DNA of 64,000 nt from a virus (Duplodnaviria > Caudoviricetes): positions 32,001-96,000 of IMG/VR virus record IMGVR_UViG_3300037067_009128, one strand, 5' to 3'. A model generated the notes under the pieces. It searched no databases and was not told where the DNA came from. It saw only the letters and a program-made list of their open reading frames with translations. Numbering within the stretch: position 1 is the first letter of the stretch; every line of letters starts with the position of its first letter. The position numbers were made by a program, and so were the translations under genes. Below are positions 15,241 to 42,022 of this stretch, one piece after another.

Positions 15241-15672
15241 TTATATTTGAATCATGGGAACTTGGACTTCCATCATAAGCTTATCTCTTGCTTCATCTTT
15301 TATATATTTATTCAAATAAAATATTTTCTTAACATTAAATGTTATTAAAAGTTTATAACAATTAATACATGGTGGATGAGTTATATAACAAGTTAAAGAA
15401 TCATATTTTCTTTGAAGATTAGAAACAGCTGCAACTTCACCATGAGCACATCTTATACAATGATTATCATGCATTAAACAACCAACATCATCACAATGTT
15501 GAGTTTTTGAGGCAGATGAATTATAACCTATAGCTGCTATTCGATTTTTATCATCAACAAGAACACAACCTACTTTTAATCTAATACAAGTTGCACGTTG
15601 TGAAGCTAATGTTGCTATTCCCATAAATAATTCTTCTCTAGAAATACGTTTATTAACTTTCTTTTTAGGCAT
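15241..15672 (-). CDS. dCMP deaminase
   Basis: RATCIRLKVGC, GYN, HGE, PCINC. Confidence 0.9.
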   Translation of the reverse strand: MPKKKVNKRISREELFMGIATLASQRATCIRLKVGCVLVDDKNRIAAIGYNSSASKTQHCDDVGCLMHDNHCIRCAHGEVAAVSNLQRKYDSLTCYITHPPCINCYKLLITFNVKKIFYLNKYIKDEARDKLMMEVQVPMIQI

Positions 15673-17042
15673 TATATCTCCAATAATTTATTAAAAACTT
15701 CTTCAGGTAATTTTACTTTTTTGTAATAATTATTCATTTTAAAATTTAAATACTCAGAATTACTGTATACATCTTCAATTAAATCTAAATCATTTTCATT
15801 TAATTTATTCTTAAAATCAGGAAAAACTTCACAAAATAAAGCAAGTTGAGTTTCTCTTGAAAATGCAACAAATTTCTTACTTACATTTTTATTTTTTACC
15901 TTTTTATATAATGTGTCAATATTGATTTTAAAATGATTCAATAGGTTTTTATCTAAACAATCAGGTGATTCAGATTGTTTGATTATTTCAATAATTTCTT
16001 CTCTTGTATAAATCTCTTTGATAACAGTGAATCCATCATAATTCTCTAAGTCATTCAAATCACCATCTTTTTTTAAATAAGAATCTGGGTCTTCTCCGTC
16101 AGGTAATAATAATACTTCAAATGGTAATCCTATTTTAATAAATTCTTTTGCATTTCTTTTTATAGCAATTAAGCCTGCATTATCACCATCATACATCATT
16201 AACCATAATGGTGCTAAACTTTTAAGTTTCAATACTTGTTCTTGTTTTAAACTCAATCCAATAGACCCTACAGAATTTTTAAAATCATAACAATGCATAG
16301 TTATTATGTCAAATTGACCTTCAATTAAAAATCCATATCCTTTTTCTTTTATTGACTTTGAAGCTTTATTTAATCCAAAAAGATATCTACTTTTAGAAAA
16401 ATAGAAATTGTCTTGAGTATTAACATATTTAGGATTAAACTCTTTATAAATAGTTCTACCGCTAAAACCTATAGTCCCGATAAGATCATTAAGGGGAATT
16501 GTTACTCTATCAAACAATGAACTCATATAAGTTTCAACAGGAGTATTTTTATTCATTATTTGAAGTAATCCAAGTTCAACTAATTCATTTTTATAATGTT
16601 GAAACTCTTTATATAAATCAAATGAACCACCAGAATAACCTAATTCCCAAAAATCAACTATTTCTTTATTATAACCTCTTTGATTAAATAAATAATCTGA
16701 TGATTCATCTACTCTTGATACAAAATACTCTTTGATATTTTGAAGGATGTTTAAATATGTTTCACCTTCAAGATGAATACCTAATTTTTTAGCAAGATAT
16801 CTAACTGCTTCATCCTTTGTAAGATTATGCATTTTTGCTATAAAATCAAATACATCTCCTTTAAAATCACAACCAAAGCATTTAAAATATTGTTCTTTTG
16901 TATTCACTAAAAAAGAAGGATCTTTGTCAATATGTACGGGACAAACACCTTTGAGATTATCATCATTCTTAAAAGATAAATTAACATATTCAGATATTAT
17001 ATCTTCTATCTTAATTTGATTTTTAATTTCTAATAGATTCAT
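15672..17042 (-). CDS. dnaG: DNA primase
   Basis: CPVH...CFGC zinc finger, FSGR, PKYVN, EGQFD, YDGDNAG TOPRIM, DPD. Confidence 0.95.
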   Translation of the reverse strand: MNLLEIKNQIKIEDIISEYVNLSFKNDDNLKGVCPVHIDKDPSFLVNTKEQYFKCFGCDFKGDVFDFIAKMHNLTKDEAVRYLAKKLGIHLEGETYLNILQNIKEYFVSRVDESSDYLFNQRGYNKEIVDFWELGYSGGSFDLYKEFQHYKNELVELGLLQIMNKNTPVETYMSSLFDRVTIPLNDLIGTIGFSGRTIYKEFNPKYVNTQDNFYFSKSRYLFGLNKASKSIKEKGYGFLIEGQFDIITMHCYDFKNSVGSIGLSLKQEQVLKLKSLAPLWLMMYDGDNAGLIAIKRNAKEFIKIGLPFEVLLLPDGEDPDSYLKKDGDLNDLENYDGFTVIKEIYTREEIIEIIKQSESPDCLDKNLLNHFKINIDTLYKKVKNKNVSKKFVAFSRETQLALFCEVFPDFKNKLNENDLDLIEDVYSNSEYLNFKMNNYYKKVKLPEEVFNKLLEI

Positions 17043-17397
17043 ATTTATGAAAGTTCACCTTTAATAGCTTCTTGTAATTCTTCATTATCTCTTACTGCAG
17101 TAAACAATTCAGAAATCGTTATAAAACTTCCAATTTCTTTAAACCATTTTTCATTTATGAAGATATCTACTGTATATAAATCACACTTTGCTATATCATG
17201 ATAATATGGTTTAATTTTTAATGTTATTTCCATTTTTTATACTTATTTTAATTTTTTAATATTACAAATATAAATCTTCATTTAATAAATATGGATAAAA
17301 GAAACTAACCATTTTATAAATTCATACCCAAGTATAGAAATAATTGCTATTACAATTATAATTATGATTAAGTCGATGAGTTTAAATTCCGGAAACA

Positions 17398-17808
17398 TTA
17401 TTTCTCCTTATTTTTAGATTTACAATGTATACCATCATCAGTAGGCCCAAAATGAGCATTTGAGTGATTTGATACTTCAAATTCTATCATACAAAGATTT
17501 GCAACATCTACCAAATATTCTAAATTTCCTGTTTTTTGAAAATTTTCAAGTCTTTCAATACATGAACCTATTCTATCCCATTTCATTCCTTGATTTATAC
17601 GCCAATCATTATATCTTAATGTTCCCATAATCACACGATTAGTCATTAACTCAATAAATCTTTTACTCATTAGAGTTTCTTTTAAAACTGGAGCATCAGG
17701 CATAAACTCTCTTTTCTCTTCTTCTTGTTCACATTTCCATAACCATAAATTATGTAAAAAGAATGCCTCATTACCCAAAGGTTTCTTTAAGCAATTTTTA
17801 TTTTCCAT
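17398..17808 (-). CDS. All-alpha dNTP pyrophosphatase-like (MazG-related) protein
   Basis: G.LRY.DW and EYLVDVANLCMI helix; nucleotide-metabolism context. Confidence 0.45.
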   Translation of the reverse strand: MENKNCLKKPLGNEAFFLHNLWLWKCEQEEEKREFMPDAPVLKETLMSKRFIELMTNRVIMGTLRYNDWRINQGMKWDRIGSCIERLENFQKTGNLEYLVDVANLCMIEFEVSNHSNAHFGPTDDGIHCKSKNKEK

Positions 17809-17820
17809 TTTTACTCCGAT

Positions 17821-18822
17821 TTATTCAGAAAGTAATTGATGTTTGTCTACTGATTGTAAGTATTCTTTGGCTTGTTTTAATATATATTCTCCTACTTGAG
17901 GAACAATACTTTTACCTATTTGATCTGCTACTCCATTTTCACTCCCAAAGAATTGAAAATCAAGTGGATACCCCATTAAGCAAGCATTTTCTCTATTAGT
18001 AAGAGTTCTATTTTCTGTTGGATGAATATATCTTGTAGAACTTCCCATTATTACTGGAGCAGGTTTATCAAGTGCAAGTCTTCTTTGTTGAGAACCGGAA
18101 TACATTGATTCTCCAGTTCTTAATCTTGACATCTTTTCAATTTGTTCATCAGAATGTTTTGGGAATTTATCATTATATAAAACACAACCTTCACTCCTAA
18201 CTTTTTCTAACATTTCAAATGCAGATCTGATAGTTAATTGACCTCGTTTGTCTTCTAAAGGTGGTTTTAAAAAGAATCTGAATGGGTATAAACTACCAAT
18301 AACAAATAATCTATCTCGTACTTGAGCAATTCCAACTTCAGTAGGGTTAATTCTGTGTTCTTCAATATAATAATCAGGAAGTTCAATTTCTTTCTTACTT
18401 ATCATATGTTTTAAAACTGTTCCACCTGCAGTGGCTTCAAATCTTAAATAATTTCTGACACTTGGTAAGTTTTCTAATATAAATATTATAGGTTTTCTAT
18501 CTATAATTTCTTGTACAAATTGAACATATTCAAATTCATCAAAGTCTTTAGTTTGAACATTAACAACATTTTTACTACTTCTACCTGCAGAACTAATTTC
18601 ACCACAAGATGGACTTCCCCAAACAATATCAGCTTTCATATTGTAGAACGCTTTCAATTGTTGAGACCACATAGTATCTGGGAAATTAAAACGATGTGTC
18701 TTAATATTAAAGTATTTTCTAGGTTCAATTGCCCATAAAGTTTTTAAACCTACATTTCTTGCTGCTAATAAAGAGGCTCCCGCTCCGCCAAAAATTACTC
18801 CAAATGTTATGATCTTTTCCAT
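17821..18822 (-). CDS. C5 DNA cytosine methyltransferase-like protein 1 (atypical)
   Basis: FGGAG, GSPSCG, ENL, QVRDRLF, RTLTNRENACLMGYP, QIGKSIVP. Confidence 0.85.
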   Translation of the reverse strand: MEKIITFGVIFGGAGASLLAARNVGLKTLWAIEPRKYFNIKTHRFNFPDTMWSQQLKAFYNMKADIVWGSPSCGEISSAGRSSKNVVNVQTKDFDEFEYVQFVQEIIDRKPIIFILENLPSVRNYLRFEATAGGTVLKHMISKKEIELPDYYIEEHRINPTEVGIAQVRDRLFVIGSLYPFRFFLKPPLEDKRGQLTIRSAFEMLEKVRSEGCVLYNDKFPKHSDEQIEKMSRLRTGESMYSGSQQRRLALDKPAPVIMGSSTRYIHPTENRTLTNRENACLMGYPLDFQFFGSENGVADQIGKSIVPQVGEYILKQAKEYLQSVDKHQLLSE

Positions 18823-19136
18823 TATTTATAATCGTATTCTAATGAGTTGTGTAAAAAGTTAATTTCAGGAATAGATAATTCATAATTAATATTTGAACTG
18901 ATATAAAATTCTATGACTTCAAGAAATGCAATCGATTGTTCTATCAATAAAATTTCTTCTTTGATTTTATTTCTTACTTCTTCTTTTAATTCTTTACTTA
19001 AATTTCCTTTTTCAGTATCAATTATAAGATTTTCCTTTCTATCAATACTTGCTTTTAATTTTCCTATTTTTGAAGTTGAAAGAGATTGAATTTGACTACC
19101 AGAAATATTGATTTTTAATGATTCAAACATAAACAC
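18822..19136 (-). CDS. Hypothetical protein between the two MTase-like genes
   Basis: ORF track. Confidence 0.6.
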   Translation of the reverse strand: MFMFESLKINISGSQIQSLSTSKIGKLKASIDRKENLIIDTEKGNLSKELKEEVRNKIKEEILLIEQSIAFLEVIEFYISSNINYELSIPEINFLHNSLEYDYK

Positions 19137-20089
19137 CTCATTATTTGTTTTCCTAATTCTTCAGCAACTGGAGGAGAAATACTTTTGCCTATTAAATCTA
19201 AAGAATCATTTTCTTTTCCTATAAATTCAAAATCTAAAGGAAATCCTTGAAAAGTTGCACATTCTCTTACATTTAAGACTCTTGGTTCAAATGGATGTAC
19301 ATATCTTGTACAATGAGAAGTAATTGTAGGGCATACTTTTTGAGGGTTTAATTTCCTATTATTCTGACCACCATAAAACGATTCACCATATTTTAAATTT
19401 TTGAAACCTTCCATTCTTTCTTTTGAATGGTGTGGATTTTCATCATTATATAATGGAGGTTTAAAATTTAAATCTCTTATTTCTCTTTCATTATCCAAAG
19501 TTTCTAATACTTCATTTACACTTTTAACATGGTAGTTAATAGGCATCTTAAAAGTAAAATTATATTTCTTCTTATATAAAATTACGTAAATCCTGTTTCT
19601 TTGTTGTGGAACTCCAAAAAAATAACTATTGAGATTTAAAAATTCAGAATTGTATTCTCCATATTCAATAAATGCTTCAGTAGGTAAATGGATTACTCTA
19701 TCTTTTTGAAACGAAAAGAATTTTTCTATTTTTGTTAGATATTCAATAATTATAAACTCAGCATTTCTTGATAATAATTTTCTTAAAGATTTAATAAAAT
19801 CAAAATCATCAATTGTAAAGGTTTTCAATTCACTACGATCTTCTCGTTTCATTCCTAATGATGATAGCTGTGCACAAGACGGAGAAGAAATCAAAACATC
19901 AATTTTCATATTATCAAATTCATCAAAATCATCTGAGATATTTATGTTAGGAAAATGGTATTCCCAAGTTTTAATATTTTTATAGAAAAAATCTCTATCA
20001 TCTAATATAAATGAAGGTTCAAATCCAGCTTGTTTCAATCCAAGAATATTACCTATACCAGAAGAAATTCCACCACAAGTTTTATTCAT
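19115..20089 (-). CDS. C5 DNA cytosine methyltransferase-like protein 2 (atypical)
   Basis: SSGIG, SSPSCAQ, EYL in place of ENV, QQRNRIY, LNVRECATFQGFP, IGKSISP. Confidence 0.85.
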   Translation of the reverse strand: MNKTCGGISSGIGNILGLKQAGFEPSFILDDRDFFYKNIKTWEYHFPNINISDDFDEFDNMKIDVLISSPSCAQLSSLGMKREDRSELKTFTIDDFDFIKSLRKLLSRNAEFIIIEYLTKIEKFFSFQKDRVIHLPTEAFIEYGEYNSEFLNLNSYFFGVPQQRNRIYVILYKKKYNFTFKMPINYHVKSVNEVLETLDNEREIRDLNFKPPLYNDENPHHSKERMEGFKNLKYGESFYGGQNNRKLNPQKVCPTITSHCTRYVHPFEPRVLNVRECATFQGFPLDFEFIGKENDSLDLIGKSISPPVAEELGKQIMRCLCLNH

Positions 20090-20661
20090 TTAATTCCTCT
20101 CATACATTCAGTTTTATCAATTTTAGCTTGAGTTAAAACCTTTTTAACATAATCTTGTGTTAAAACAGTTTTAGTATCTATTTTAATTATAGGTGCTTCA
20201 TTCATAATTAAATAATCAACTGTTTTCATATAAATCTTTTGAATTTCTAATATTTCTTCAAATGTAAATAATCTTTCACCTCTAGTTTCAAATCTTGATT
20301 TTAAAACATTTTCATCTGAACAATAAGTAATAAAAACTTGAACATCTTTATTTAATTCTTTATTGAAAAGGTATTTATAAACATAATCAATATCTGTATC
20401 TCTATTAAAGAATTTAGAATAAACCAAAGATGAAATTAATCCTCTATCTAGTACAAAATCATATTGTTTAGCTAAAGGAAATATTGAATCAAAGAAAAAT
20501 CTTGTGATCACTTCAATTTGATTCTCATTTAATTTCTCACGTTTATCTAATTTTAAGATATCTAATCTTTTTTTAATAACAGGGATACATTTAATATCAG
20601 AAATCATTTTTGCTAAAGTTGATTTCCCCGATAAATCAACTCCGTCTACTATTATTAACAT
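20086..20661 (-). CDS. dNMP kinase (thymidylate-kinase-like)
   Basis: DGVDLSGKST P-loop, VLDRGLISSLVY, RGE lid. Confidence 0.85.
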   Translation of the reverse strand: MLIIVDGVDLSGKSTLAKMISDIKCIPVIKKRLDILKLDKREKLNENQIEVITRFFFDSIFPLAKQYDFVLDRGLISSLVYSKFFNRDTDIDYVYKYLFNKELNKDVQVFITYCSDENVLKSRFETRGERLFTFEEILEIQKIYMKTVDYLIMNEAPIIKIDTKTVLTQDYVKKVLTQAKIDKTECMRGIK

Positions 20662-21052
20662 TCTTTTTTTCTCCTACTTCTGTTGAAAAATCTTTAATAA
20701 AAATAATTGAATCATTTGTAATTTTAAACCAATCTTTCAAATCTGGGTATTCATCATCCATTATTGATTTAATTATTTTTAACATATTACTTCTACCAAT
20801 TTGATTATGTCCTTGAAAATGGTCATAAACACATATACATCCATTAGGATTCCTTATAGCCATTTCAATAAATGTTATAGCTAATAATTTGGATCTTCCT
20901 TCTCCTATATGTTCAGTAGGATCTAATAACCATCTTATTGATTGTATATGTTGTTTTTGAGTTAATGTTAATTTATCCGGGTCTTTATCAATAGATAATA
21001 TCTCATTAATATCATTTAATTTTCGAACTAATGTATTTGAATTTATAGACAT
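20636..21052 (-). CDS. Hypothetical protein with P-loop-like GEGRS
   Basis: ORF track; degenerate Walker A-like segment. Confidence 0.5.
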   Translation of the reverse strand: MSINSNTLVRKLNDINEILSIDKDPDKLTLTQKQHIQSIRWLLDPTEHIGEGRSKLLAITFIEMAIRNPNGCICVYDHFQGHNQIGRSNMLKIIKSIMDDEYPDLKDWFKITNDSIIFIKDFSTEVGEKKNVNNSRRS

Positions 21053-21099
21053 AAAATACTCCTTTTATTTTAAAAACATTATATTAAATATAATACTAC

Positions 21100-22035
21100 T
21101 TATAATTTAATAACATTAAAATCTAATAAATTTTTTGAGTTTATCGACCAGTCATCTAAAAGTTTATCCTTTTTTAGGTATGCATGTAGTATTGCAAAAT
21201 AATAACTTTTAGCAAAATTACTACTAAATTCTTTATCATTTATACCTAGTTCACTAACTTCATAATTAGGTACTTCGCACAAATCAATTAGGTCATCTAT
21301 CAACTCAACATCTTTTTTAGTAAATGATCCATCATCTTCAAAAAATATCCAATCTTGTTTTATTAGTTTTGTGATAGTATTCTTTACTGAACCGGTAACA
21401 TCTCTTTTCTTTTGATAGTATATTTCAGGTACAAAATGAAAATAACTACCTAATTTTAAATTAGTTTCTGAAGCAACATATCTTTGTAATAATGTATGGT
21501 GAAAAACATCATAAGGTAATAAATTCATAACATCATTAACTCTCATATTAACATACACATCAAGTTCACCATTTCTGTTCATAAACTGTATTGTTAGTGT
21601 ACAAGGTCTTCTTGGATAAAGATCTCTAGTCATAAGATATTTATCATCCCATATATTTAGAATACATTCAGAATATCCTTTTTTAAGACGTTTTATAATA
21701 ACAGGTAATTGAGAATTATAAACATCTCCATAACTATAACAAAATCCTTCAAAATCTTCTTCTTCATTTTTTAATTTTTTTGCCCAATTAGGTCTAAATT
21801 GATAAGCTGTTCCTGGATTATTTCTACTTTCTTTTTGAGAAAGACGATTAACTCCTTCTACAAAACACCAAGACCAATTCTTTCTAATAGATATTAAAGA
21901 ATTACAAGGATTTGTTAATTCAAAAAATACTCCTGGGTAACTCTTAAATTTTCCTACAATTTGTCCTGTTGATTCAAGAGTTTCTAAGATTTTTAAATAT
22001 ATATTATAAAAATTATTTTCTTTAAGAATTAACAT
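21100..22035 (-). CDS. Thymidylate-synthase-fold protein 1 (divergent, dCMP-type Asp)
   Basis: YSYG, QLPVII, RPCT catalytic Cys, MRVND...PYD. Confidence 0.8.
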   Translation of the reverse strand: MLILKENNFYNIYLKILETLESTGQIVGKFKSYPGVFFELTNPCNSLISIRKNWSWCFVEGVNRLSQKESRNNPGTAYQFRPNWAKKLKNEEEDFEGFCYSYGDVYNSQLPVIIKRLKKGYSECILNIWDDKYLMTRDLYPRRPCTLTIQFMNRNGELDVYVNMRVNDVMNLLPYDVFHHTLLQRYVASETNLKLGSYFHFVPEIYYQKKRDVTGSVKNTITKLIKQDWIFFEDDGSFTKKDVELIDDLIDLCEVPNYEVSELGINDKEFSSNFAKSYYFAILHAYLKKDKLLDDWSINSKNLLDFNVIKL

Positions 22036-23071
22036 AATCAACCCAATTTGGATACATTTTTTGAAATTCTTCATGTAAAGGAATCATCAATTCCCTCATT
22101 TGAGGATGTGCAGCATTAGATGTTCTCATATAAAAAATCCATTGCCATTCTTTCAGATTAGTAGTAACAACAATTTCCGTTTTTATATGGTGACTCAATT
22201 TACCTCTAGCTTGTTGAGGTTGAAGACCATAATTTATAGCATTTAAATATCTTGATTCATTAATTGCACAATCAAAGAAGAATTCTTTATCAATATCAGA
22301 ACTAAACTCAAAATTTCTTTTTTCACCTTCATGATATTCATGTTCAGATATGTTAACCCAAGGAGGTATTATATAAGTTAATTGATTTCCAAATTTATCT
22401 TTACTATAATTACAATATCTTGTACTTTCTTGTGAGAATGCAATATTGTTACGATGTCTTACAAGTTCATGAGTAACTCCTCTATCACAAACAAAATTAA
22501 CAGAAACACATTCATGAATTAACTTCTCATCAAATGTTAAAAGTTCAGTATTGTTGAGTTCAAAGAATAAGGTTTGATTATCTTTTTCATATGTATGTTT
22601 AATTACCGGAAAAGGTTCTTTGTTTATTAAATCTTTAAAAAATAATGAGTATTTATTAATTAAATAATAATACAATTCTAAAAACATAAAATTATCTTCT
22701 ATGTCATTTACTTGTTTAATATAATTAAAAACATCAATAATTAAATTTCTAAATGCTCTTACATTTCCTGAGACAAAACATCTATGATAACTATGGGCTT
22801 TATCTCTTGAGAGTTTTAAATATTTTGTTGACATTCCATCATTGAATGTAATAAACCATTTATAGAATGCTGAATTAGTTATTGCAAAAATAAGATTATG
22901 ATGTTCAAGAACTGAATAATGATTTCTTTCTTTTATTTTACTTATAAACTTAATATAACTATCATCAGTAATTAAACATTCAGATTGATAACAAACCCTT
23001 CCGCAATTTTCTATTTTTTTATAAGGGTTATCTTCTTTTATAATTTCAAAATAAGGTTTTATTAATCTCAT
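22022..23071 (-). CDS. thyX: Flavin-dependent thymidylate synthase
   Basis: GRVCYQS, HYSVLEH, RGVTHELVRHR...SQESTRY, AHPQMR. Confidence 0.95.
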   Translation of the reverse strand: MRLIKPYFEIIKEDNPYKKIENCGRVCYQSECLITDDSYIKFISKIKERNHYSVLEHHNLIFAITNSAFYKWFITFNDGMSTKYLKLSRDKAHSYHRCFVSGNVRAFRNLIIDVFNYIKQVNDIEDNFMFLELYYYLINKYSLFFKDLINKEPFPVIKHTYEKDNQTLFFELNNTELLTFDEKLIHECVSVNFVCDRGVTHELVRHRNNIAFSQESTRYCNYSKDKFGNQLTYIIPPWVNISEHEYHEGEKRNFEFSSDIDKEFFFDCAINESRYLNAINYGLQPQQARGKLSHHIKTEIVVTTNLKEWQWIFYMRTSNAAHPQMRELMIPLHEEFQKMYPNWVDYVNS

Positions 23072-23320
23072 GTTTATTCCTCATCATTTTCATCTTCTTC
23101 ATCTTGAACTAAATATTCTGGCCATTTACCAGAACTTTCATATTCTCTGACACAATCAATTGCATACTGTTCTATTTGTTTTTTCAAATCTCCTGCAGGT
23201 ATGAGTTTAGATGAATTTACATTAAAACTAGCATTAGTATTGATCTTTTTATTGTCTAAAGACTCAGATGTTATTATAATTGATATTAAACATTTATCCA
23301 TTAAATTAGCTCCTTTTTAA

Positions 23321-23956
23321 TTAATAATTACTTTCTTGTCGAAATTGATTTACTCTTGATTTTTGATAATACATATTAAGAATTTCAATAGGTTTCATTT
23401 TTAAAAATAAGATGTTAAGATATTTAATAAAAGCTTTTGATAAAAACGATTGATACTTGACAATATCTGTTGAAACATGAGTACATTTCCATGGTTTTAT
23501 TTTTAAACAATTCATAGTTTTACCAAGGATTTTTATAAAATCTCTCAATTCTATATCAAGAGTTTCATCATCTAATAATTGAGCATCAAGATATTTATCA
23601 TAAGGTTTAAAATCACAAAAAACTTCAGCATCTATACTTGATAATAAACAAAGTTCAACAATAAAATGTAAACCGTCCATCATTTCTTCTTTATAGTGTA
23701 CTTCATCATGAAAATCATCTAAAGCTTCTAAAGCCTCACCAATTTCTTCAACAATTCTCCAAGCAAAATTCTTCAATAAATTCTGATCTTTACCATTATC
23801 TATATTACAAAATAAATTCTCTGGATAATAAAATCCATTTTTAACTTCAATAGGTGCATATTTTATCGCTAATTCATGTTGACGTTTAAAGATCAGAGGA
23901 ATTAGATCGATGGTATCTTTTTCAGAAAATTCTGTGGTATAATCATTAATATTCAT
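23321..23956 (-). CDS. Dimeric all-alpha dUTPase/dCTPase (T4 gp56-like)
   Basis: EEIGE, KEEMMDGLHF, KPWK, YYQKSRVNQFRQESNY. Confidence 0.8.
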   Translation of the reverse strand: MNINDYTTEFSEKDTIDLIPLIFKRQHELAIKYAPIEVKNGFYYPENLFCNIDNGKDQNLLKNFAWRIVEEIGEALEALDDFHDEVHYKEEMMDGLHFIVELCLLSSIDAEVFCDFKPYDKYLDAQLLDDETLDIELRDFIKILGKTMNCLKIKPWKCTHVSTDIVKYQSFLSKAFIKYLNILFLKMKPIEILNMYYQKSRVNQFRQESNY

Positions 23957-23970
23957 TTAGTTTATTCCTT

Positions 23971-24879
23971 TTATAAAATTGTTTGAAGTTTACTGGGAAT
24001 CATTGTAGATTTTAATGAGTGCAATGATGATATAAATCCGTCATTTCTTAAACTATCTATTAAATCTTTACTATTAATAGCTTTAATTTCATATTCAAAA
24101 AGTTTATTATTAAGTAAATACAAATTAGGTTTTGGTAGAATTAATTCATCGTCTTCAATAGATTTAATTCTATTATCATGATTTTTTAAATCAATCAGTC
24201 TTATATTTCTTTTAACATTTTCAATTTCAGTAGGATACATTGATTCTAATGTTTTTAATGGTTCAATTTCACCATTGATGAATCTACATGTTTTAACTTC
24301 ACCAAATCCTTTTATTCCTTTAATATTATCTGATGTGTCACCTAATATAGATAAGTACAAAATAAACTGTTCTTTTGAAACTCCATATTTAGTTTTAATC
24401 ATATCTTCATCATACTTAATTAAACCATCTTTTGGATGGGGTCTTAAAACTTTTATATTATTTTCATCAGAAATTAGTTGTAATAGATCTTTATCATTTG
24501 ATATAATTGTAATATCTTTTTGAAATCGTCTTACAAGATACTCAATACAATCATCAGCTTCATATTCATCCTTTCTTATTTGAGGTATTCCAATTAAAGT
24601 ACATAAATCTTTTACATTATGAAAACACTCAATCATTTCTTCATTAATTTCTTTTCGCTTTTCTTTGTATTGGGGGTATTCTTTTCTTCTCCAATTTTTA
24701 TCTTTACTACCTTCCCAAGCAATTATGAATTTATCTGTAACTCTTGCATAAGAAATTAACATATTAAAAAATCCATAAATACCACCTGTGTGTATTCCTT
24801 TTGAAGATTTGAATTTTGAGAATACGTGATACGCTCTATATGCTAAATTAGCACCATCTATAAGACAAATATTAGACAT
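23971..24879 (-). CDS. 5'-3' exonuclease / flap endonuclease
   Basis: IDGANLAYRAY, YKEKR, EADD, SNDKDLLQL, GDTSDNIKG. Confidence 0.95.
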   Translation of the reverse strand: MSNICLIDGANLAYRAYHVFSKFKSSKGIHTGGIYGFFNMLISYARVTDKFIIAWEGSKDKNWRRKEYPQYKEKRKEINEEMIECFHNVKDLCTLIGIPQIRKDEYEADDCIEYLVRRFQKDITIISNDKDLLQLISDENNIKVLRPHPKDGLIKYDEDMIKTKYGVSKEQFILYLSILGDTSDNIKGIKGFGEVKTCRFINGEIEPLKTLESMYPTEIENVKRNIRLIDLKNHDNRIKSIEDDELILPKPNLYLLNNKLFEYEIKAINSKDLIDSLRNDGFISSLHSLKSTMIPSKLQTIL

Positions 24880-27966: not shown

Positions 27967-28590
27967 TTAATCCTTAAATAAGGCATCTAGGATTTCTTTA
28001 TCAAGTTTATTATTTGACACTGTTTTGATTATTTTAACTAATTTTGCAATACCATTTCTACGTTTAGCTCCTAATATTTTAGCAATAGTTGTTCTTGAAG
28101 CATCGGGGAATGCTAATCTAAGTTGAAAAGTTTTTCCAGCTCTTTTACTTACACTAAAAATTATATCATGTAATCTGTGTATATCTTCTATAAATCTTTC
28201 ATCAATTTTAATTTCACCACTGTCGAAAACATATTCTTCAAGATTCTCAATTTCTAAATTAGGATCCATTCTTGAATTACAAGTATTTTTTCCTTCTTTA
28301 TCTGTTTTATTTATCTCTCTTATTACTCCTTGTTTAACTATGTGGTATACCCAACCTAAAGCATTGTCCCATCTATTCTGGTCGAATTTGAGTATAGCTT
28401 TCCAGAATGATTCAAATGCTATAATTTCAATATCACTTTCTTCAAATACTCCATGTTTATCATGAAAGTTTTTCAATCCAAAATATTTTTTTATCTTTTT
28501 AAAATAAAACTGTAATTCACAATCACTTGGGGATTTTTTATAATTCTCAATAAAAAGTAATAAATCTTCATTAGTTATTAGGTTTTTCAT
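27967..28590 (-). CDS. Phage RNA polymerase sigma-factor-like protein
   Basis: Region-2-like DIEIIAFESFWKAILKFDQNR...WVYHIVK; C-terminal HTH-like SRTTIAKILG. Confidence 0.65.
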   Translation of the reverse strand: MKNLITNEDLLLFIENYKKSPSDCELQFYFKKIKKYFGLKNFHDKHGVFEESDIEIIAFESFWKAILKFDQNRWDNALGWVYHIVKQGVIREINKTDKEGKNTCNSRMDPNLEIENLEEYVFDSGEIKIDERFIEDIHRLHDIIFSVSKRAGKTFQLRLAFPDASRTTIAKILGAKRRNGIAKLVKIIKTVSNNKLDKEILDALFKD

Positions 28591-30301
28591 CTTTCTTTAC
28601 CTTTTTAAACTCAACTTGTCTCATTTGAGTATTGATAATTTTTAAACATTGTGGATTGATATTTAATGCAACGTTTACTTGAGGCCCGTTACTTTGCTTT
28701 GCTATGTTAACTTCTATTGCATAATTTAATAATGTAGTATCATAAAAATTTGGATAATGTAATAACATTACTATTCTAGCAAATTCTTCATAAGCTCCAG
28801 AATCTTTTAATTCCCATAATGATGGACGAGGATCTTTTTTCTTTTCACTATTTCTGTTAATTTGTACTAATAAACAATAATGTTGTTTAAACTCTTTTGC
28901 CATTGTTAAATACCTAACAAGAGTTGCACTTACTTTTTGTGCTTTAAATTCTGGAGAATCACCTACTCCTTTTAATCTATCAAATAAATCAAAGAATACA
29001 ACTTTTACTCCCTTTTTAGCTAACATCCTCAATTCGTTTCTCATTTGATTTTCAGATTTATTTGTACCTTCAAGTAAATGGTAATTCCATTTAGATTGAA
29101 TCTCCCAAGCATTTTTTAACTTTTCTAAACGGTTATCAGATTTTAACCAAGAATGACTACCAACAATTTCTTTTATAGGAATACCAGAAATGATTGAATC
29201 AATACGGTCCGATTCTACTTCCATAGTTTGTTCAAGAGCATAACTTGCAACACCAGTTCCGAGGTTACACATATTAGTAATTAGATTCCCTTTAACAAGT
29301 GAATTATGAACTAATATATTATTAGCAATGAAATTTGAATTTTTTAATAATGTTAAATCATATGTATCATCAATATCAGTTAAATCTATAGATTTAATAG
29401 GTAAAAATATAAAATCAGATTCTATTAATGCTATTAAATCTTCATTAATACTTAAATCTTTTAAAGATTTCCAACCTGTTTTAGTTAAAAATAAATGATT
29501 ATTAGATGCTTCTATTTGATATCCTATCTTAGATAAAACTATTTTATACAATTGTTTTTTTCCAGAATCAATCTTATCAATTACTCTATCTAATTCAAGT
29601 TTATCATCATTGTTTTTAGTCCAAATTAAATCTCCTACTTTAATATTTCTCAATTCAATTAATCCATGATTTGTATTGATTAATGAATTCCCTTTTAAAC
29701 ATTTCCCGTTACTTGGACGGCCAGCAACAATTGATATTTCACCTTCTTCAAATTTATAAGTAAGATTATCATCAATCTCTTTAATTCCACAATAAATTGA
29801 AGTTTTTGATTTCCTATCTTCTAAAGTCTTTATCCTGAAATCAGTATAAGTATCACCCGTAATATATTTTTCATCTAAAATTGATGATGAATTCTCTAAT
29901 TTGAAATCTTTTATTAATTGTTGGTAAGGATCTGGGTCATTTTTTAATTTTTTGATAAGAGATTGGCATTCATCTATTGTTTTTCTTCTATCATGCCTAT
30001 CAATAAGAAGTTCAATAAGACTGTCAAGTTTTTCTGGTATGAAATATTTATCTTCAATTGATATAATCTCATCTAAAGATAATACATCCCCTATTAGTGA
30101 TAATTCACTTTTAACAGTATAAGCATTAACATCTAAATTCTTTTCAACTAAATTAGAAATTGCAATAAAACAAGTTCTAAAATCAGGTTGACTAAAATGA
30201 TCATCTGTTAATTGAGAGAGTATTTTTTGTCTAGCTTCATCAAAAGATATACTTAAACCTATAACTAATTGCTCATTTATTCTATCATTACTTATATTCA
30301 A
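28571..30301 (-). CDS. dnaB: Replicative DnaB helicase containing an intein
   Basis: AGRPSNGK|S Walker A split by intein, ALEQ, FFD, VQINR, RPSLWELKDSGAYEE, AKQSNG. Confidence 0.95.
   Translation of the reverse strand: MNISNDRINEQLVIGLSISFDEARQKILSQLTDDHFSQPDFRTCFIAISNLVEKNLDVNAYTVKSELSLIGDVLSLDEIISIEDKYFIPEKLDSLIELLIDRHDRRKTIDECQSLIKKLKNDPDPYQQLIKDFKLENSSSILDEKYITGDTYTDFRIKTLEDRKSKTSIYCGIKEIDDNLTYKFEEGEISIVAGRPSNGKCLKGNSLINTNHGLIELRNIKVGDLIWTKNNDDKLELDRVIDKIDSGKKQLYKIVLSKIGYQIEASNNHLFLTKTGWKSLKDLSINEDLIALIESDFIFLPIKSIDLTDIDDTYDLTLLKNSNFIANNILVHNSLVKGNLITNMCNLGTGVASYALEQTMEVESDRIDSIISGIPIKEIVGSHSWLKSDNRLEKLKNAWEIQSKWNYHLLEGTNKSENQMRNELRMLAKKGVKVVFFDLFDRLKGVGDSPEFKAQKVSATLVRYLTMAKEFKQHYCLLVQINRNSEKKKDPRPSLWELKDSGAYEEFARIVMLLHYPNFYDTTLLNYAIEVNIAKQSNGPQVNVALNINPQCLKIINTQMRQVEFKKVKKDEKPNN
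29303..29701 (-). mobile_element. Mini-intein (133 aa, no homing endonuclease) in DnaB Walker A
   Basis: Begins CLKGNSLI, block B ASNNHLF, ends YDLT...NFIANNILVHN followed by Ser. Confidence 0.93.
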
Positions 30302-30305
30302 ACGT

Positions 30306-35559: not shown

Positions 35560-36654
35560 ATGGTATTTCCTAAAAATATTACTTATTTAAATATATCTAT
35601 TACTAATCAATGTAATTTTAAATGTTCTTATTGTTATAAAAATAATAAATCAAAAGAACAATCAATTGATATGAGTTTTGATGATTTAGATAAAATTTTA
35701 AAAGCTTTATCCTTGAACAGTGATAGAAAATTACCTTTAACATGTTTTATTTCTGGAGGAGAACCTCTTTTAACAGATCATTTGAGTTTAATTACTCTTA
35801 TAAATAAATATAATAAAATTAAATTTCAAATATCCACTAATGGGTCTATAAAGATAGAAGATTATTTTATAAATGGTCTTATCAATAAAAATATATCTTG
35901 GGTATTATCTTATGATGGGGTAATGTGTAATCAACGTATGGGGTTTGATAAAATTACATTTAATCATAATATAGATATTTTAACTAATAATGAATTTCAT
36001 GTTCATTTAAATCCAACTTATAACCATAATAATATCAAAAACATGGTTCATATTTATTATGAAGAATTAATAAATACAAATAAGTACATAACTTATGGTT
36101 GGAATTTAGCTAAAGCAGTAACAACAGCTTTCCCAGATAATTACTATAAAGAATTTACTGATGCAATGTTTTTTATATTAAACGATATTTCTGAAAGAAA
36201 ATATAAGTATGTACCTTTATATATAAAAGGATTAATAGGTTTAAAACTTGTAGGTAGTTTATCTCCTCATTGTTATCATAAATATCGTAATATTATTGAT
36301 GTTTATGGGAATATTTATAGGTGTAATATTATAAGTCAAAATACTGATTTTAGACATGGTAATATTCATGATGATTTATATTATAACTATATAAACTACA
36401 ATTATAAATTTAATCTAAAACTTAATAAAGTAGAAGATTTCATAAATAATTATAGACATGATTTTGATTGTAAATTGATATGTACATTGCATCCAAAAGT
36501 TTATACTATTTTAGATACTTTAATTGATGAATTTATAATAAAAGCACCTAGTAATGTATCATTAGATTCTATAAGTTTTTACAATAAATGTTATCCAACT
36601 GGATTTTGTTTAGGTACAAATATGAATGCACCAGCATTTAATTTTAATTTATAA
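35560..36654 (+). CDS. Radical SAM protein with SPASM/twitch-like C-terminus
   Basis: CNFKCSYC, SGGEPLL, STNG, SYDG, C...IDVYGNIYRC. Confidence 0.9.
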   Translation: MVFPKNITYLNISITNQCNFKCSYCYKNNKSKEQSIDMSFDDLDKILKALSLNSDRKLPLTCFISGGEPLLTDHLSLITLINKYNKIKFQISTNGSIKIEDYFINGLINKNISWVLSYDGVMCNQRMGFDKITFNHNIDILTNNEFHVHLNPTYNHNNIKNMVHIYYEELINTNKYITYGWNLAKAVTTAFPDNYYKEFTDAMFFILNDISERKYKYVPLYIKGLIGLKLVGSLSPHCYHKYRNIIDVYGNIYRCNIISQNTDFRHGNIHDDLYYNYINYNYKFNLKLNKVEDFINNYRHDFDCKLICTLHPKVYTILDTLIDEFIIKAPSNVSLDSISFYNKCYPTGFCLGTNMNAPAFNFNL

Positions 36655-39270: not shown

Positions 39271-39303
39271 GATTTTTAAGAAATATTTACTAAGGAATGA
39301 TAA

Positions 39304-40073
39304 ATGGAAGCTTCAATAAGTCTTAATGTAAATGATTTAATCTCATCTTTAAAAAATACTCCACAAGTCCCAAGATACAAAATAATAAACGGTCAAAGAA
39401 TTAAAATTGAAGAATATAACAATCTTGAAAATCAAGAAAAAGAAAATTTACTCTTCAAAGATGAAATAGACTATTCTGTTATAGATGATGAACTTTATGA
39501 ATTAGATAAAGAATGGAAAACAGAAATTGACCCTGTTATGAAACAGATTTTATCTTTGAAATATGACTTGATAATTTTCCAATTCTTTCATCATGAAGAG
39601 GATGTCAATTTAATTACTGAATTAACAAATCATCTTAACGATTTAACAAAATTATTAAAGAAATGAATAAATCTGATTTTAAAATATATGACCCAGTTAA
39701 ATTTGAATTGATGATTAATCAAGTTATCAGAAATGATGATTATCCTTTTAATTTTAAATGTAATATAAGAGTATGGGTAAAAGACAAAGAGATACCAGTA
39801 GTAAAAAATGCTTTTGAATTTAATCCTCTGTTATTGAAAAATTTAGATGATTTTATAAAGTTTAAAACTCATAAGTATTTTCCAGGGAAACATAAGAATT
39901 ATTTTATTAAAGAAATCAAAGATCAATTAAATTTAATTGATTTCGTTTTAATTGTAAAAGATAGAGAAAATAATGATTTTACTATAAAATTATATTTTGA
40001 TACTTCTACAAAACAATATATTATCACATCTGTAGAATCAAATTCTCTTTATCCAAAGGGCTCACAATTATAA
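39304..40073 (+). CDS. Two hypothetical proteins (39304-39666, 39663-40073)
   Basis: ORF track. Confidence 0.65.
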
Positions 40074-40158
40074 ATCTGATGACTGGATGAATTAATTTAT
40101 AATTGTTGATTTTCATTTTATAAATAAATTTAATAAAATAATTTAAAGGAGATTTTTT

Positions 40159-40551
40159 ATGGACCCTAACAAATTGAAGAATCTAAAATCCCTATCAAAC
40201 AAAGGAAAAAAAGATTCAGAAACTAAAAAAACTGAAGAAGTTGCAAAAACAGAAACACCTTCTGAAACAAAACCAGAAGTAAAATCTGAAGCAAAATCAG
40301 ATACAGCAGCAACAGTTAAGAAAGCAAAGAAAGGTTTTGATGAAGCTAAACTTGAAGAATATGTAAAAATACTTTCTGATGGGAATGCTCATTCAATTCA
40401 TGGCTTGCTTGACCATTTTAAACTTGATCACACAAGTTCTGGTAGAGAAGTCTTAAGGACAGCTAACAGGACTATCAATCAGACAGGTAAATTCAAAATA
40501 GAAACTATGTTTGTTGATAGTAAAAAAGCTAATAAATTAGTTAAATTATAA
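40159..40551 (+). CDS. Lys/Glu-rich N-terminus plus winged-helix-like DNA-binding protein
   Basis: ILSDGNAHSIHGLLDHF HTH-like segment; strong SD; terminator. Confidence 0.55.
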   Translation: MDPNKLKNLKSLSNKGKKDSETKKTEEVAKTETPSETKPEVKSEAKSDTAATVKKAKKGFDEAKLEEYVKILSDGNAHSIHGLLDHFKLDHTSSGREVLRTANRTINQTGKFKIETMFVDSKKANKLVKL

Positions 40552-40576
40552 ATTATTTTTCTTATTTGATTCATTG

Positions 40577-40604
40577 AGAGGACAACTTTAAATTGTCCTC
40601 TTTT
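40577..40604 (+). terminator. Intrinsic terminator
   Basis: AGAGGACAA-7nt-TTGTCCTCT-TTT. Confidence 0.85.
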
Positions 40605-41194
40605 AATATTAAGGATGTTTATGTTTGATGGAATTTCGTTGGTTATTTTTATCGTAATCATCTGGTTGATTAGGATTTTAATTGAACAAAATAGAGAATT
40701 AAAATCATACAGAAAGATATTTAAATTCAATAAGAGTGAATTAAAAATTTTTAAAGAAAAAACTTTTATTTACAGTTATATTCAATTTAGACTTTTTATT
40801 CTTAGGGTTAAAAGATTAAATCTAAGAATAAAAAGAATTAAAACAGAAGAAGATATTGATTTTGTAATAAAAGAATTCTAAAACTTAAAAAAGGAGTGAT
40901 TATGTACAATTATATTTATTCTCATATTCGCTATAATGCAATTATATCTATTATTGCTGATAATAAAAAAATAGCAGATGCTATTTTTAAAGAAATTGTT
41001 GGTAAAAATAAAAATTTTTGGGATTTTATAGAAAGGATAAAAAACTAAATGGAACCGAAAGTAAAAATTGTAATATTTGATGATGAAAGTTTTAAAGTCT
41101 GTTCAGAACTTCAAGCTAAAGAATACGAAAATAACCCAGAATGGCTTATGACTTTAGATTTAAACTGGATTAATGAATTAGCAAAGGAAGTAAA

Positions 41195-42022
41195 ATGAGA
41201 ATATATCAAACACTTTATGAATGTACTTCTGAAACAGAGAGGAATCTTTGGGAAATGGGTATTGACGTACCCATCAAAACAATGCAAAATAAAAAAGTTG
41301 AAGGTGATCCAAATTTGGGGATGACTAAAGAGATTATGGGTGAGACTTATAAAATAATAGATCCTTTAAATATTGAAGGAATCATTAAAGCATATAATCA
41401 TATGTTTAAATTTGATTCAAAAAATTTAAAAATTAGTGAAGAAGTAAATAAAAACTTACATTGGGTTCAAGAAGAATTTAAAGAAAGAATTTTTAATCCT
41501 AGTAAAGGTAATTGTGATTTTATTAATCCTGGGGAAGCTTGGGAAATCAGAAAAGAAACTTGGGAACCATTTTTAGTAAATGGTAAATTTGAGTATACTT
41601 ATAATGAAAGATTGCGTGCATTTAATCAATTACAAAAAGTAATTAATCATTTAAAATCTGATATCAATTCAAGAAGAGCAGTAATTAATATATATATAGG
41701 TCCACCATTTTCAGGTTATTTTAATGATGAGGATGGTATTTGTGATGGTTATGAACCAGGAGATCTACAAGGACTTAAAGATATTAAAAGAGTTCCATGT
41801 TCAGTTACTTATTCATTTTTATATAGAGAAAATAAGTTACATACATTTTACCATATGAGAAGTTCTGATTTTTATTTACATTGGATTAACGATATGCATC
41901 TTGCAGCAAAATTCGGTAAGTATGTTGCAGATGAATTGAAAGTTGATTCAGGTGAATTGATAGTTTATATCAATTCATTACATGCATATTACGGTGAACT
42001 TAAAAAAAGAAAGATATTTTAA
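41195..42022 (+). CDS. Thymidylate-synthase-fold protein 2 (dCMP hydroxymethylase/methylase-like)
   Basis: YTYNER, SRRA, VPCS, MRSSDFYLHWIND, SLHAY. Confidence 0.85.
   Translation: MRIYQTLYECTSETERNLWEMGIDVPIKTMQNKKVEGDPNLGMTKEIMGETYKIIDPLNIEGIIKAYNHMFKFDSKNLKISEEVNKNLHWVQEEFKERIFNPSKGNCDFINPGEAWEIRKETWEPFLVNGKFEYTYNERLRAFNQLQKVINHLKSDINSRRAVINIYIGPPFSGYFNDEDGICDGYEPGDLQGLKDIKRVPCSVTYSFLYRENKLHTFYHMRSSDFYLHWINDMHLAAKFGKYVADELKVDSGELIVYINSLHAYYGELKKRKIF

What the first reader, a model, noticed from the sequence alone, without database searches (positions are those of the whole stretch)
15241..42022. Probable uncharacterised cytosine-modification pathway: two Asp-type TS homologues alongside ThyX, dCTPase-like enzyme and dNMP kinase
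Established: Asn177 of E. coli ThyA specifies dUMP, while Asp at this position (T4 dCMP hydroxymethylase) specifies dCMP. Seen: both TS-fold genes have Asp here (MRVNDVMNLLPYD at 21100-22035; MRSSDFYLHWIND at 41195-42022) and keep the catalytic PC. dTMP is already covered by dCMP deaminase plus ThyX. A gp56-like dUTPase/dCTPase, a dNMP kinase and a second pyrophosphatase-like gene are clustered. Inference: the phage makes a C5-modified dCTP (5mC or 5hmC) and may elaborate it further.
Basis: partly seen in the sequence, partly recalled or inferred. Interest (0 to 1): 0.82.

Follow-up and report, generated by a model that had tools for sequence, protein, structure and literature searches.

The report
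Paired cytosine-type thymidylate-synthase homologues in phage
A 117-kb groundwater phage carries a T4-like gene set for altering cytosine nucleotides before they enter DNA, built around two related enzymes of a branch of the thymidylate-synthase family whose product nobody has determined, so the modified base cannot be named from sequence.

Summary
Two TS-fold genes (TS1, 21100-22035 minus; TS2, 41195-42022 plus) keep Cys146, Arg166, Asp169, Tyr94 and Glu58. Both have Asp at the E. coli Asn177 position, and this Asp is invariant in both families. dCMP deaminase, ThyX, a dimeric d(C/U)TPase-family enzyme and a Tmk-like kinase are also real. The "second pyrophosphatase" was not found.

Variable glycosyl-, methyl-, sulfo- and phospho-transferase genes sit beside it.

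The choice "5mC or 5hmC" cannot be made:
- TS1 and TS2 are sister clades with a Tyr/Arg pair where T4-type hydroxymethylases have the essential Ser/Asp pair and ThyA has Pro/Leu.
- Neither has the D169N mark of flavin-dependent 5-hydroxy-dCMP synthases.
- No characterised enzyme falls in this clade.

TS1 is MilA-like, with a C-terminal helical domain and altered phosphate and sugar contacts. Every near-complete relative carrying TS1 also has either a second Asp-type TS gene or ThyX.

Two atypical C5 DNA methyltransferases, conserved inside the cluster, sit awkwardly with full cytosine replacement. No raw reads were available, so modification remains untested. This scan's other notes on these genes all come from this same genome.

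Verdict: a new variant of a known kind.

The parts
21100..22035 (-). TS1: a 311-aa TS-fold enzyme with MilA-like architecture (TS core plus C-terminal helical domain). It has Cys145, Arg165, Asp168 and Asp176 (= N177D), and a Tyr100/Arg142 pair. The R127 position is Glu, the H207 position is not His, and R126 is Ser in this copy only.
   Evidence: PF00303, 36.7 bits. AF2 pLDDT 90. Foldseek best match is MilA, TM 0.74. Residue table. The Ser codon TCT is identical in an independent landfill run.
41195..42022 (+). TS2: a 275-aa TS-fold enzyme with the full dNMP clamp (R159, R160, S223, H263, Y265). It has Cys202, Asp225 and Asp233 (= N177D), and a Tyr134/Arg199 pair. It ends 10 residues after the HxY motif.
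   Evidence: PF00303, 41.9 bits. AF2 pLDDT 90. Family invariants; residue table. 32-40% identical to TS genes of C. perfringens and gut phages.
22022..23071 (-). ThyX, the flavin-dependent thymidylate synthase, with a roughly 120-aa insertion. It overlaps the TS1 start by 14 nt.
   Evidence: PF02511, 120.5 bits; TIGR02170, 87.2 bits against a cut-off of 87.9. RHR...SQESTRY motif.
23321..23956 (-). All-alpha dimeric d(C/U)TPase-family nucleotide pyrophosphohydrolase, the T4 gp56 family.
   Evidence: PF08761, 29.9 bits; phrog_12184, 77 bits. BLASTP E 0.001 to T4 gp56. Syntenic with TS1 in relatives.
20086..20661 (-). Tmk-like P-loop dNMP kinase.
   Evidence: phrog_761, 48.6 bits; PF02223, 26.3 bits, just below the cut-off. 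GVDLSGKST P-loop. Next to TS1 in relatives.
15241..15672 (-). dCMP/cytidine deaminase-family zinc enzyme.
   Evidence: PF00383, 67.7 bits. HGE and PCINC motifs.
19115..20089 (-). C5 DNA methyltransferase paralogue A. Motif IV reads SPSC and motif X reads GKS instead of GN.
   Evidence: PF00145, 112.9 bits; alignment.
17821..18822 (-). C5 DNA methyltransferase paralogue B, with the same atypical motifs.
   Evidence: PF00145, 91 bits; alignment.
12994..15057 (-). A 687-aa fusion of a GT2 glycosyltransferase and a class-I methyltransferase. Candidate tailoring enzyme.
   Evidence: PF00535, PF13847 and PF08241; phrog_2456.
7894..12886 (-). Tailoring island: two GT-like proteins, a DUF2334 deacetylase-like protein, a small protein-kinase-fold kinase, a Methyltransf_24 protein and two unknowns.
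5103..7835 (-). [quoted passage not shown] No GExPG motif was seen.
   Evidence: PF00476, 231.9 bits; PF03167, 22.2 bits, below its cut-off. Motif scan.

Best explanation
This is a T4-style pre-replicative pyrimidine-modification module. The d(C/U)TPase-family enzyme returns dCTP and dUTP to monophosphates. TS1 and TS2 bind dCMP: Asp at the N177 position reads the cytosine N3/N4 face. Cys attacks C6, and a one-carbon unit from methylene-tetrahydrofolate is transferred to C5. The Tmk-like kinase phosphorylates the modified dNMP, host NDP kinase completes the triphosphate, and the phage PolA incorporates it. The neighbouring glycosyl-, methyl- and phospho-transferases probably decorate the base on DNA. 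ThyX plus the deaminase make ordinary dTMP.

Shown: the folds, the catalytic residues, Asp177, the synteny and the co-occurrence. Inferred: every activity and the fate of the product in DNA.

The C5 substituent cannot be read from sequence. Both enzymes belong to an uncharacterised Tyr92/Arg143 clade.

My preferred division of labour is as follows. TS1 always sits with the pyrophosphatase and kinase, so it makes the precursor for hypermodification. TS2 also occurs alone with a deaminase in other phages and is complementary to ThyX among relatives. It is a second dCMP C5-transferase, possibly a methylase whose product is also deaminated to thymidylate.
For: - Asp177 plus the catalytic set is present in both enzymes and invariant in both families.
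- Asp177 as the dCMP determinant, and the need for a cognate dNMP kinase, are stated in PMC13326640.
- The order dUTPase_2, TS1, Tmk-like kinase, C5-MTase is conserved in four relatives. Variable LicD, sulfotransferase, GT/MT, AdoMet decarboxylase and carrier-protein genes lie beside it.
- TS1 and TS2 overlap by 4 bp in L006 and L007.
- All four near-complete relatives with TS1 have a second Asp177 TS gene.
- The closest cultured-phage relatives of TS1, VPE25 and VFW, have cytosine-modified DNA and a beta-glucosyltransferase next to the gene (PMC4999554).
- Inteins sit exactly at the catalytic Cys or inside the Y-x-Y motif of TS2 homologues, which marks these sites as essential.
- TS2-type plus deaminase without any other TS occurs in CPD4, G002 and G005. 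This matches the Xp12-like route described in bioRxiv 10.1101/2024.12.05.627091.
Against: - There is no chemical evidence. Only assembled contigs exist for the source runs.
- Both enzymes lack the Asp/Glu three residues before the Cys. T4 work shows this residue is required for hydroxymethylation: D145N is inactive (PMC6400193).
- One or two C5 DNA methyltransferases are conserved in every relative. They would have no substrate if cytosine were fully replaced.
- TS1 has Glu at R127 and no His207, and this copy has lost R126. Its substrate may therefore not be dCMP.
- The TS2/ThyX complementarity rests on six genomes.
Confidence: 0.55

Rival explanations
1. The final modified base is thymine-type. 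One TS homologue makes 5-hydroxymethyl-dCMP. The deaminase converts it, or its triphosphate, to the 5-hydroxymethyl-dU nucleotide. The transferase island decorates 5hmU in DNA. Cytosines stay unmodified at replication and are then handled by the two C5 methyltransferases.
For: - Several dCMP-family deaminases linked to Asp177 TS genes gave 5hmdU when co-expressed with a dCMP hydroxymethylase (bioRxiv 10.1101/2024.12.05.627091).
[quoted passage not shown] A UDG-like domain is present here and in relatives.
- This reading explains why C5 methyltransferases are conserved.
Against: - The UDG match is below the Pfam cut-off and no GExPG motif was found. UDG-PolA fusions also occur in N4-like phages without T modification.
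- ThyX would compete by making normal dTMP.
- Known 5hmU phages use Asn177 enzymes (SPO1, ViI).
Confidence: 0.15
2. There is no genome-wide base replacement. TS2, and perhaps TS1, methylates dCMP only as a route to thymidylate (dCMP to 5-methyl-dCMP to dTMP through the deaminase). This duplicates ThyX. DNA protection comes from the C5 methyltransferases alone.
For: TS2-type and ThyX are complementary among relatives. G002, G005, G006 and G010 have a second TS and no ThyX. The P0018-type phage has ThyX and no second TS. A deaminase is present in G002, G004, G005 and CPD4, the genomes checked for it.
Against: - This does not explain TS1, its conserved pairing with a pyrophosphatase and kinase, or the tailoring genes.
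- In Xp12 the same route goes with full 5mC replacement.
- This phage keeps TS1, TS2 and ThyX together.
Confidence: 0.1
3. TS1 and TS2 work as a heterodimer. TS2 donates its Arg pair to complete the TS1 active site, giving one functional site per dimer.
For: - TS1 lacks R127 (Glu, invariant) while TS2 keeps both arginines.
- The two genes overlap by 4 bp in L006 and L007.
- The pair is present in all four near-complete relatives.
- The two family trees are roughly congruent.
Against: - The P0018-type phage has TS1 and no second PF00303 gene. Its two fragments, G003 and G004, together span about 122 kb.
- TS2-type enzymes occur alone in many phages, such as CPD4.
- TS1 has an invariant KKR motif that could replace the missing arginines.
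- No complex could be modelled with the tools available.
Confidence: 0.1
4. TS1 is a MilA/BcmA-like ribonucleotide (CMP) hydroxymethylase. Its product is a free base, a nucleoside metabolite or an RNA precursor rather than a DNA precursor.
For: - The best structural match is MilA, including the C-terminal five-helix domain (TM 0.74; PMC5175136).
- In this copy the two positions that set deoxyribose preference (Ser167, Arg126') are Val and Ser. This is analogous to Ala176 and Lys133' in MilA.
Against: - Most family members keep Arg126 and Ser or Thr at position 167.
- The Asp at L143 that MilA shares with hydroxymethylases is Arg here.
- No MilB-like N-glycosidase was recognised.
- TS1 is always flanked by a dNTP pyrophosphatase and a dNMP kinase inside the replication module.
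Confidence: 0.07

Closest known systems
T4 dCTPase (gp56), dCMP hydroxymethylase (gp42), dNMP kinase (gp1) and glucosyltransferases
   Same: The same logic and the same protein families: a dimeric d(C/U)TPase-family enzyme, an Asp177 TS-fold enzyme, a dedicated dNMP kinase, a dCMP deaminase with a separate thymidylate synthase, and glycosyltransferases nearby.
   Different: - The Ser94/Asp145 hydroxymethylation pair is replaced by Tyr/Arg.
- There are two TS-fold paralogues instead of one.
- The thymidylate synthase is ThyX, not ThyA.
- C5 DNA methyltransferases sit inside the cluster.
- The kinase is Tmk-like.
MilA, the CMP hydroxymethylase of mildiomycin biosynthesis (PDB 5b6d, 5jp9)
   Same: It is the best structural match of TS1. 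It shares the extra C-terminal helical domain, Asp at N177, and non-canonical residues at the Ser167 and Arg126' positions.
   Different: MilA keeps Asp at the L143 position and the His216/Tyr218 pair. It belongs to a Streptomyces secondary-metabolite cluster with an N-glycosidase. TS1 lies in a phage replication module.
Phage 5-hydroxy-dCMP synthases (HY126 AfhB, PDB 9iqc and 9iqu; RB69 gp48)
   Same: They are the best sequence matches in the PDB for both TS1 and TS2. They are short TS-fold proteins that act on dCMP, and they have Asp177.
   Different: Those enzymes carry D169N and Glu at L143, and they use a flavin and O2. TS1 and TS2 keep Asp169 and have Arg at L143.
Xp12 dCMP methyltransferase with a 5mC-selective deaminase
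   Same: An Asp177 TS homologue occurs with a dCMP-family deaminase and no conventional TS, as in CPD4 and most relatives of this phage.
   Different: The Xp12 enzyme is much closer to ThyA (138 bits to PF00303; keeps R21; Ser92/Asn143). It falls outside the TS1/TS2 clade in the tree.
Bacteroides phage BF503P1 (two annotated dCMP hydroxymethylases)
   Same: It is a cultured phage with two Asp177 TS-fold genes a few kb apart.
   Different: Both BF503P1 proteins carry the classical Ser/Asp hydroxymethylase pair. No literature on its DNA was found.

Membership tests
Thymidylate synthase / pyrimidine hydroxymethylase superfamily (PF00303) | TS fold, with a score above the Pfam gathering threshold | tested here: met
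   36.7 and 41.9 bits against a cut-off of 24.3. Foldseek probability 1.00 to many TS and MilA chains.
Thymidylate synthase / pyrimidine hydroxymethylase superfamily (PF00303) | Catalytic Cys146 with Arg166, Asp169, Tyr94 and Glu58 | tested here: met
   All are present in TS1 and TS2 and invariant or nearly so in both families. The Glu58 assignment for TS1 rests on the profile-profile alignment and the AfhB alignment.
Cytosine-specific TS-fold enzymes | Asp at the E. coli Asn177 position | tested here: met
   Asp176 in TS1 and Asp233 in TS2, invariant in 28 and 53 sequences.
T4-type dCMP hydroxymethylase (dCH) | Asp or Glu three residues before the catalytic Cys (Asp145), required for water activation | tested here: not met
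   Arg in both, invariant in both families. The requirement comes from PMC6400193.
T4-type dCMP hydroxymethylase (dCH) | Ser or Thr two residues before the catalytic Tyr (Ser94) | tested here: not met
   Tyr in both.
Flavin-dependent 5-hydroxy-dCMP synthase (AfhB / RB69 gp48) | Asn in place of Asp169 (D169N) | tested here: not met
   Asp is retained in TS1 and TS2. RB69 gp48, Atu_ph04 and P0030 show Asn in the same alignment. The criterion comes from PMC13326640.
Canonical ThyA (dUMP to dTMP) | Asn177, Leu143, His147 and the C-terminal segment that closes over folate | tested here: not met
   These positions read Asp, Arg and Thr/Ser. TS2 ends 10 residues after HxY. TS1 has a different helical C-terminal domain.
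MilA/BcmA CMP hydroxymethylase | Extra C-terminal five-helix domain | tested here: met
   Met for TS1 only: TM 0.74 over 330-340 aligned columns to MilA, with five or six C-terminal helices in the model. The feature is described in PMC5175136.
MilA/BcmA CMP hydroxymethylase | Ala at the Ser167 position and Lys at Arg126' (ribose preference) | tested here: inconclusive
   The window TS1 has Val and Ser. Most family members have Thr or Ser, and Arg.
Xp12-type dCMP methyltransferase | Asp177 with methyl product. No agreed sequence signature exists. | not testable with these tools
   The Xp12 enzyme reads Ser92/Asn143 and branches near ThyA, outside the TS1/TS2 clade.
Dimeric d(C/U)TPase (PF08761, T4 gp56 family) | Pfam match above threshold. 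dCTP hydrolysis is the defining activity. | tested here: inconclusive
   Family match met at 29.9 bits against a cut-off of 22.9. Weak similarity to gp56. Substrate preference cannot be tested.
ThyX | Thy1 domain with the RHR...S...S.RY motif | tested here: met
   PF02511, 120.5 bits. Motif RHRNNIAFSQESTRY. The TIGR02170 score of 87.2 is essentially at its cut-off of 87.9.

The most novel reading that the evidence does not exclude
The Tyr92/Arg143 clade of Asp177 TS-fold enzymes installs a C5 substituent on dCMP that is none of methyl, hydroxymethyl or hydroxyl. For example, the exocyclic methylene intermediate could be trapped by an anionic nucleophile held by the Arg. Alternatively, TS1 and TS2 act as an obligate pair. 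Either way the product would feed an undescribed cytosine hypermodification. That modification would be completed by the variable transferases, and possibly by the atypical C5 methyltransferase-like enzymes (motif X Asn replaced by Lys or Arg) acting on the modified base rather than on plain cytosine.
Probability: 0.18. Interest if true: 0.85.

Novelty: new variant of a known kind. Interest (0 to 1): 0.6.

Why it matters
Phage base modifications defeat restriction enzymes and CRISPR, and they supply enzymes for epigenetic sequencing. Current practice reads the product of a phage TS homologue from three positions: N177, L143 and D169. This locus shows a sizeable clade that those rules do not cover. 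It made up 65 of 171 sampled relatives and includes cultured Clostridium perfringens phages. In one phage lineage, two members of that clade are kept together. Expressing TS1 and TS2 with the kinase would assign a product to the whole clade. It would also test whether the Ser/Asp to Tyr/Arg swap changes the chemistry.

Tried and rejected
- Megablast of 23 kb against 50,697 phage records gave no match.
- A literature search for PDB code 9IQC found nothing useful. The identity of the entry came from the Foldseek titles.
- Literature searches for DNA modification in CPD4-type Clostridium phages and in BF503P1 found nothing relevant.
- The second pyrophosphatase-like gene was not found among 50 ORFs scanned with Pfam, or among the 20 also scanned with PHROGs.
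- The 138-aa ORF between TS1 and the kinase matches only uncharacterised viral clusters in the protein atlas.
- The 75-aa ORF after the pyrophosphatase is not the carrier protein seen in L005.
- Sequencing runs: no RNA holder is listed. Both DNA holders are kept only as contigs, so base modification, expression and read-level errors could not be examined.
- No DHFR was found in the genome. The TET/JBP search found nothing, but its control rang nowhere, so that result is not evidence of absence.
- The L143 rule (acidic means hydroxymethyl, hydrophobic means methyl) was rejected as a predictor here. Xp12, a proven methylase, has Asn at that position, and TS1 and TS2 have Arg.
- I rejected reading TS1 as a dead pseudoenzyme. 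Its catalytic residues are invariant across 28 sequences that share about 45% identity.

Full report
**Setting.** The window is bases 32001-96000 of a 117,325-bp IMG/VR virus record estimated 95% complete. GC content is about 25%. The record was assembled from a groundwater metagenome. Identical fragments occur in a landfill metagenome from a different study. Megablast found no near relative among deposited phage genomes.

**Gene content of the flagged region.** The minus-strand block from 5.1 to 31.6 kb is a replication and nucleotide-metabolism operon. In order it holds:
- PolA with a weak N-terminal UDG-like match
- a 7-kb island with three GT-like proteins, two methyltransferase domains, a small kinase and a DUF2334 protein
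- dCMP deaminase and DnaG primase
- two C5 DNA methyltransferases
- a Tmk-like kinase
- TS1 and ThyX
- a dimeric d(C/U)TPase-family pyrophosphatase
- a flap endonuclease, a helicase, a sigma-like protein and DnaB with an intein

TS2 lies 19 kb away on the plus strand. Its neighbours are small ORFs, a radical SAM protein and an ATP-dependent ligase. TS1 and TS2 are the only PF00303 genes in the genome.

**Check of the observation.**
- Alignments with E. coli ThyA and T4 gp42, fetched from public records, place Asp at the N177 position in both proteins. They confirm Cys146, Arg166, Asp169, Tyr94 and Trp80.
- The Asp is invariant in 28 TS1-family and 53 TS2-family sequences.
- Glu58 is also conserved once the families are aligned profile to profile.
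- Both proteins give confident TS-fold models (pLDDT 90).
- The deaminase has its zinc motifs, ThyX has its RHR motif, and the kinase has a P-loop.
- The pyrophosphatase is a PF08761 member with marginal direct similarity to T4 gp56.
- I could not find the second pyrophosphatase-like gene.

**Which kind of TS-fold enzyme.** I assembled experimentally characterised references from public phage records:
- RB69 td and E. coli ThyA (dTMP)
- Xp12 (5mC)
- T4 gp42 (5hmC)
- VPE25 (its DNA is cytosine-modified; PMC4999554)
- SPO1 gp29 and ViI (5hmU)
- RB69 gp48 and a Pootjesviridae homologue (5-hydroxy-C)

Residues were read at four positions: two before Tyr94, L143, D169 and N177.

| Enzyme class | Residues at the four positions |
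|---|---|
| ThyA | Pro / Leu / Asp / Asn |
| 5hmC enzymes | Ser / Asp / Asp / Asp |
| 5-hydroxy-C enzymes | Thr or Met / Glu / Asn / Asp |
| Xp12 | Ser / Asn / Asp / Asp |
| 5hmU enzymes | Ala or Gly / Asp / Asp / Asn |
| TS1, TS2 and the C. perfringens phage CPD4 protein | Tyr / Arg / Asp / Asp |

The T4 ternary-complex study shows that Asp145 activates the water for hydroxymethylation. D145N is inactive, and Ser94 holds Asp145 in place. The authors propose this pair as the hydroxymethylase signature (PMC6400193).

The 2026 study of 5-hydroxycytosine gives D169N as the mark of the flavin-dependent hydroxylases (PMC13326640). These hydroxylases turned out to be the best PDB sequence matches of both TS1 and TS2 (9iqc and 9iqu). 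TS1 and TS2 meet neither signature.

Among 171 relatives recovered with the TS1 profile, the two positions covary. Gly/Asp occurs 70 times, Tyr/Arg 65 times and Ser/Asp 9 times, with few mixed cases. In a maximum-likelihood tree TS1 and TS2 are each monophyletic (support 100). They are sisters (support 93) and separate from every characterised enzyme. Profile-profile comparison gives E 4e-36. The product of this clade is therefore unassigned.

**TS1 in particular.**
- Its best structural match is MilA, the CMP hydroxymethylase. TM is 0.74 over the full length, including the C-terminal helical domain that MilA alone was known to have.
- The family has Glu at R127, no His at H207, and Thr, Ser or Val at S167.
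- An invariant Lys-Lys-Arg follows the Tyr209 position. This could take over phosphate binding.
- The window copy alone has Ser at R126. The codon is TCT, at least two changes from any Arg codon, and it is identical in the landfill run. It is not an assembly slip.
- TS1 proper is rare: 28 clusters at E below 1e-30 among 1.84 billion representatives.

**Conserved context.** Four related metagenomic phages share the order d(C/U)TPase, TS1, Tmk-like kinase, one or two C5 methyltransferases, then primase, deaminase and PolA. The genes beside TS1 vary: GT/MT fusions and a carrier protein, LicD plus a methyltransferase, a sulfotransferase, or AdoMet decarboxylase. A fixed core with variable group-transfer enzymes is the usual layout of hypermodification clusters.

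**Co-occurrence of TS1, a second TS gene and ThyX.**
- TS1 and a TS2-type gene overlap by 4 bp in L006 and L007.
- Of ten IMG/VR records with TS1, eight hold a second PF00303 gene. These eight include all four that are at least 90% complete.
- Every second gene examined has Asp177 and Arg143.
- None of those four near-complete relatives has ThyX.
- One phage type is covered by two fragments that together span about 122 kb. It has TS1 and ThyX but no second TS.
- The window phage alone has all three.
- CPD4, a complete genome, has a TS2-type gene and a deaminase but no ThyX.

This complementarity suggests that TS2-type enzymes may supply thymidylate through 5-methyl-dCMP and deamination, as proposed for Xp12-like phages. 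The sample is small, and many phages simply rely on the host.

**What does not fit.** The C5 methyltransferases are conserved in all relatives. They carry unusual motifs: Pro-Ser-Cys in motif IV and Gly-Lys or Gly-Arg in motif X. If cytosine were fully replaced before replication, they would have no substrate. Three explanations are possible:
- Replacement is partial.
- The modified nucleotide is deaminated to a thymine-type base, leaving cytosine free.
- These enzymes do something other than methylate plain cytosine.

The PolA-UDG fusion is known from T-modified phages. Here the UDG match is weak and lacks the GExPG motif.

**Verdict.** A nucleotide-level cytosine-modification pathway is the best explanation, at about 55%. 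The pathway type is already known, and Asp177 TS homologues next to deaminases are actively mined in metaviromes. A cultured Bacteroides phage also has two Asp177 genes. Three things are new:
- the Tyr/Arg active-site pair, which defeats current product-prediction rules
- the conserved pairing of two members of that clade
- the MilA-like TS1 embedded with atypical C5 methyltransferases

None of this can be resolved without chemistry.

Noticed in passing
window 17821-18822 and 19115-20089 (minus); L005, L006, L008, L009: All eight C5 DNA methyltransferase homologues of this phage lineage have Pro-Ser-Cys in motif IV. In motif X they have Gly-Lys (one has Gly-Arg) where the family normally has Gly-Asn. 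In L009 an AdoMet decarboxylase gene lies between the two paralogues.
   Followed up: partly
L021:12036 onward and L008:16547-18286: TS2 homologues in two relatives carry inteins. One is inserted exactly between Pro145 and the catalytic Cys, so the Cys is the +1 extein residue. The other is inserted inside the Tyr-x-Tyr motif.
   Followed up: partly
window 28571-30301 (minus): The DnaB-type replicative helicase is interrupted by an intein (PF14890, 39 bits). Relative L008 has a larger one with a LAGLIDADG domain.
   Followed up: no
whole window: CpG is strongly depleted (observed/expected 0.31), while GpC is at 0.75. This could reflect the host signature or long-term CpG methylation.
   Followed up: no
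window 22022-23071 (minus): ThyX is 349 aa, with an insertion of roughly 120 residues between the N-terminal SVLEH motif and the RHR motif. It scores essentially at the TIGR02170 cut-off.
   Followed up: no
window 35560-36654 (plus): A 364-aa radical SAM protein (MoaA/SPASM-like, with weak viperin and QueE similarity) lies directly upstream of the ATP-dependent DNA ligase. It is not seen next to the ligase in relative L009.
   Followed up: no
window 5103-7835 (minus): [quoted passage not shown] Relatives L006 and L007 have a clearer UDG match.
   Followed up: partly
L041 (Bacteroides phage BF503P1) 3158-3964 and 6037-6717: A cultured B. fragilis phage carries two Asp177 TS-fold genes, both with the classical Ser/Asp hydroxymethylase pair. 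No publication on its DNA was found.
   Followed up: partly
window 20000-24000 in runs X1 and X2: The same phage sequence, with zero differences in the fragments laid, occurs in a groundwater metagenome (2022) and a landfill metagenome (2018) from different studies.
   Followed up: partly
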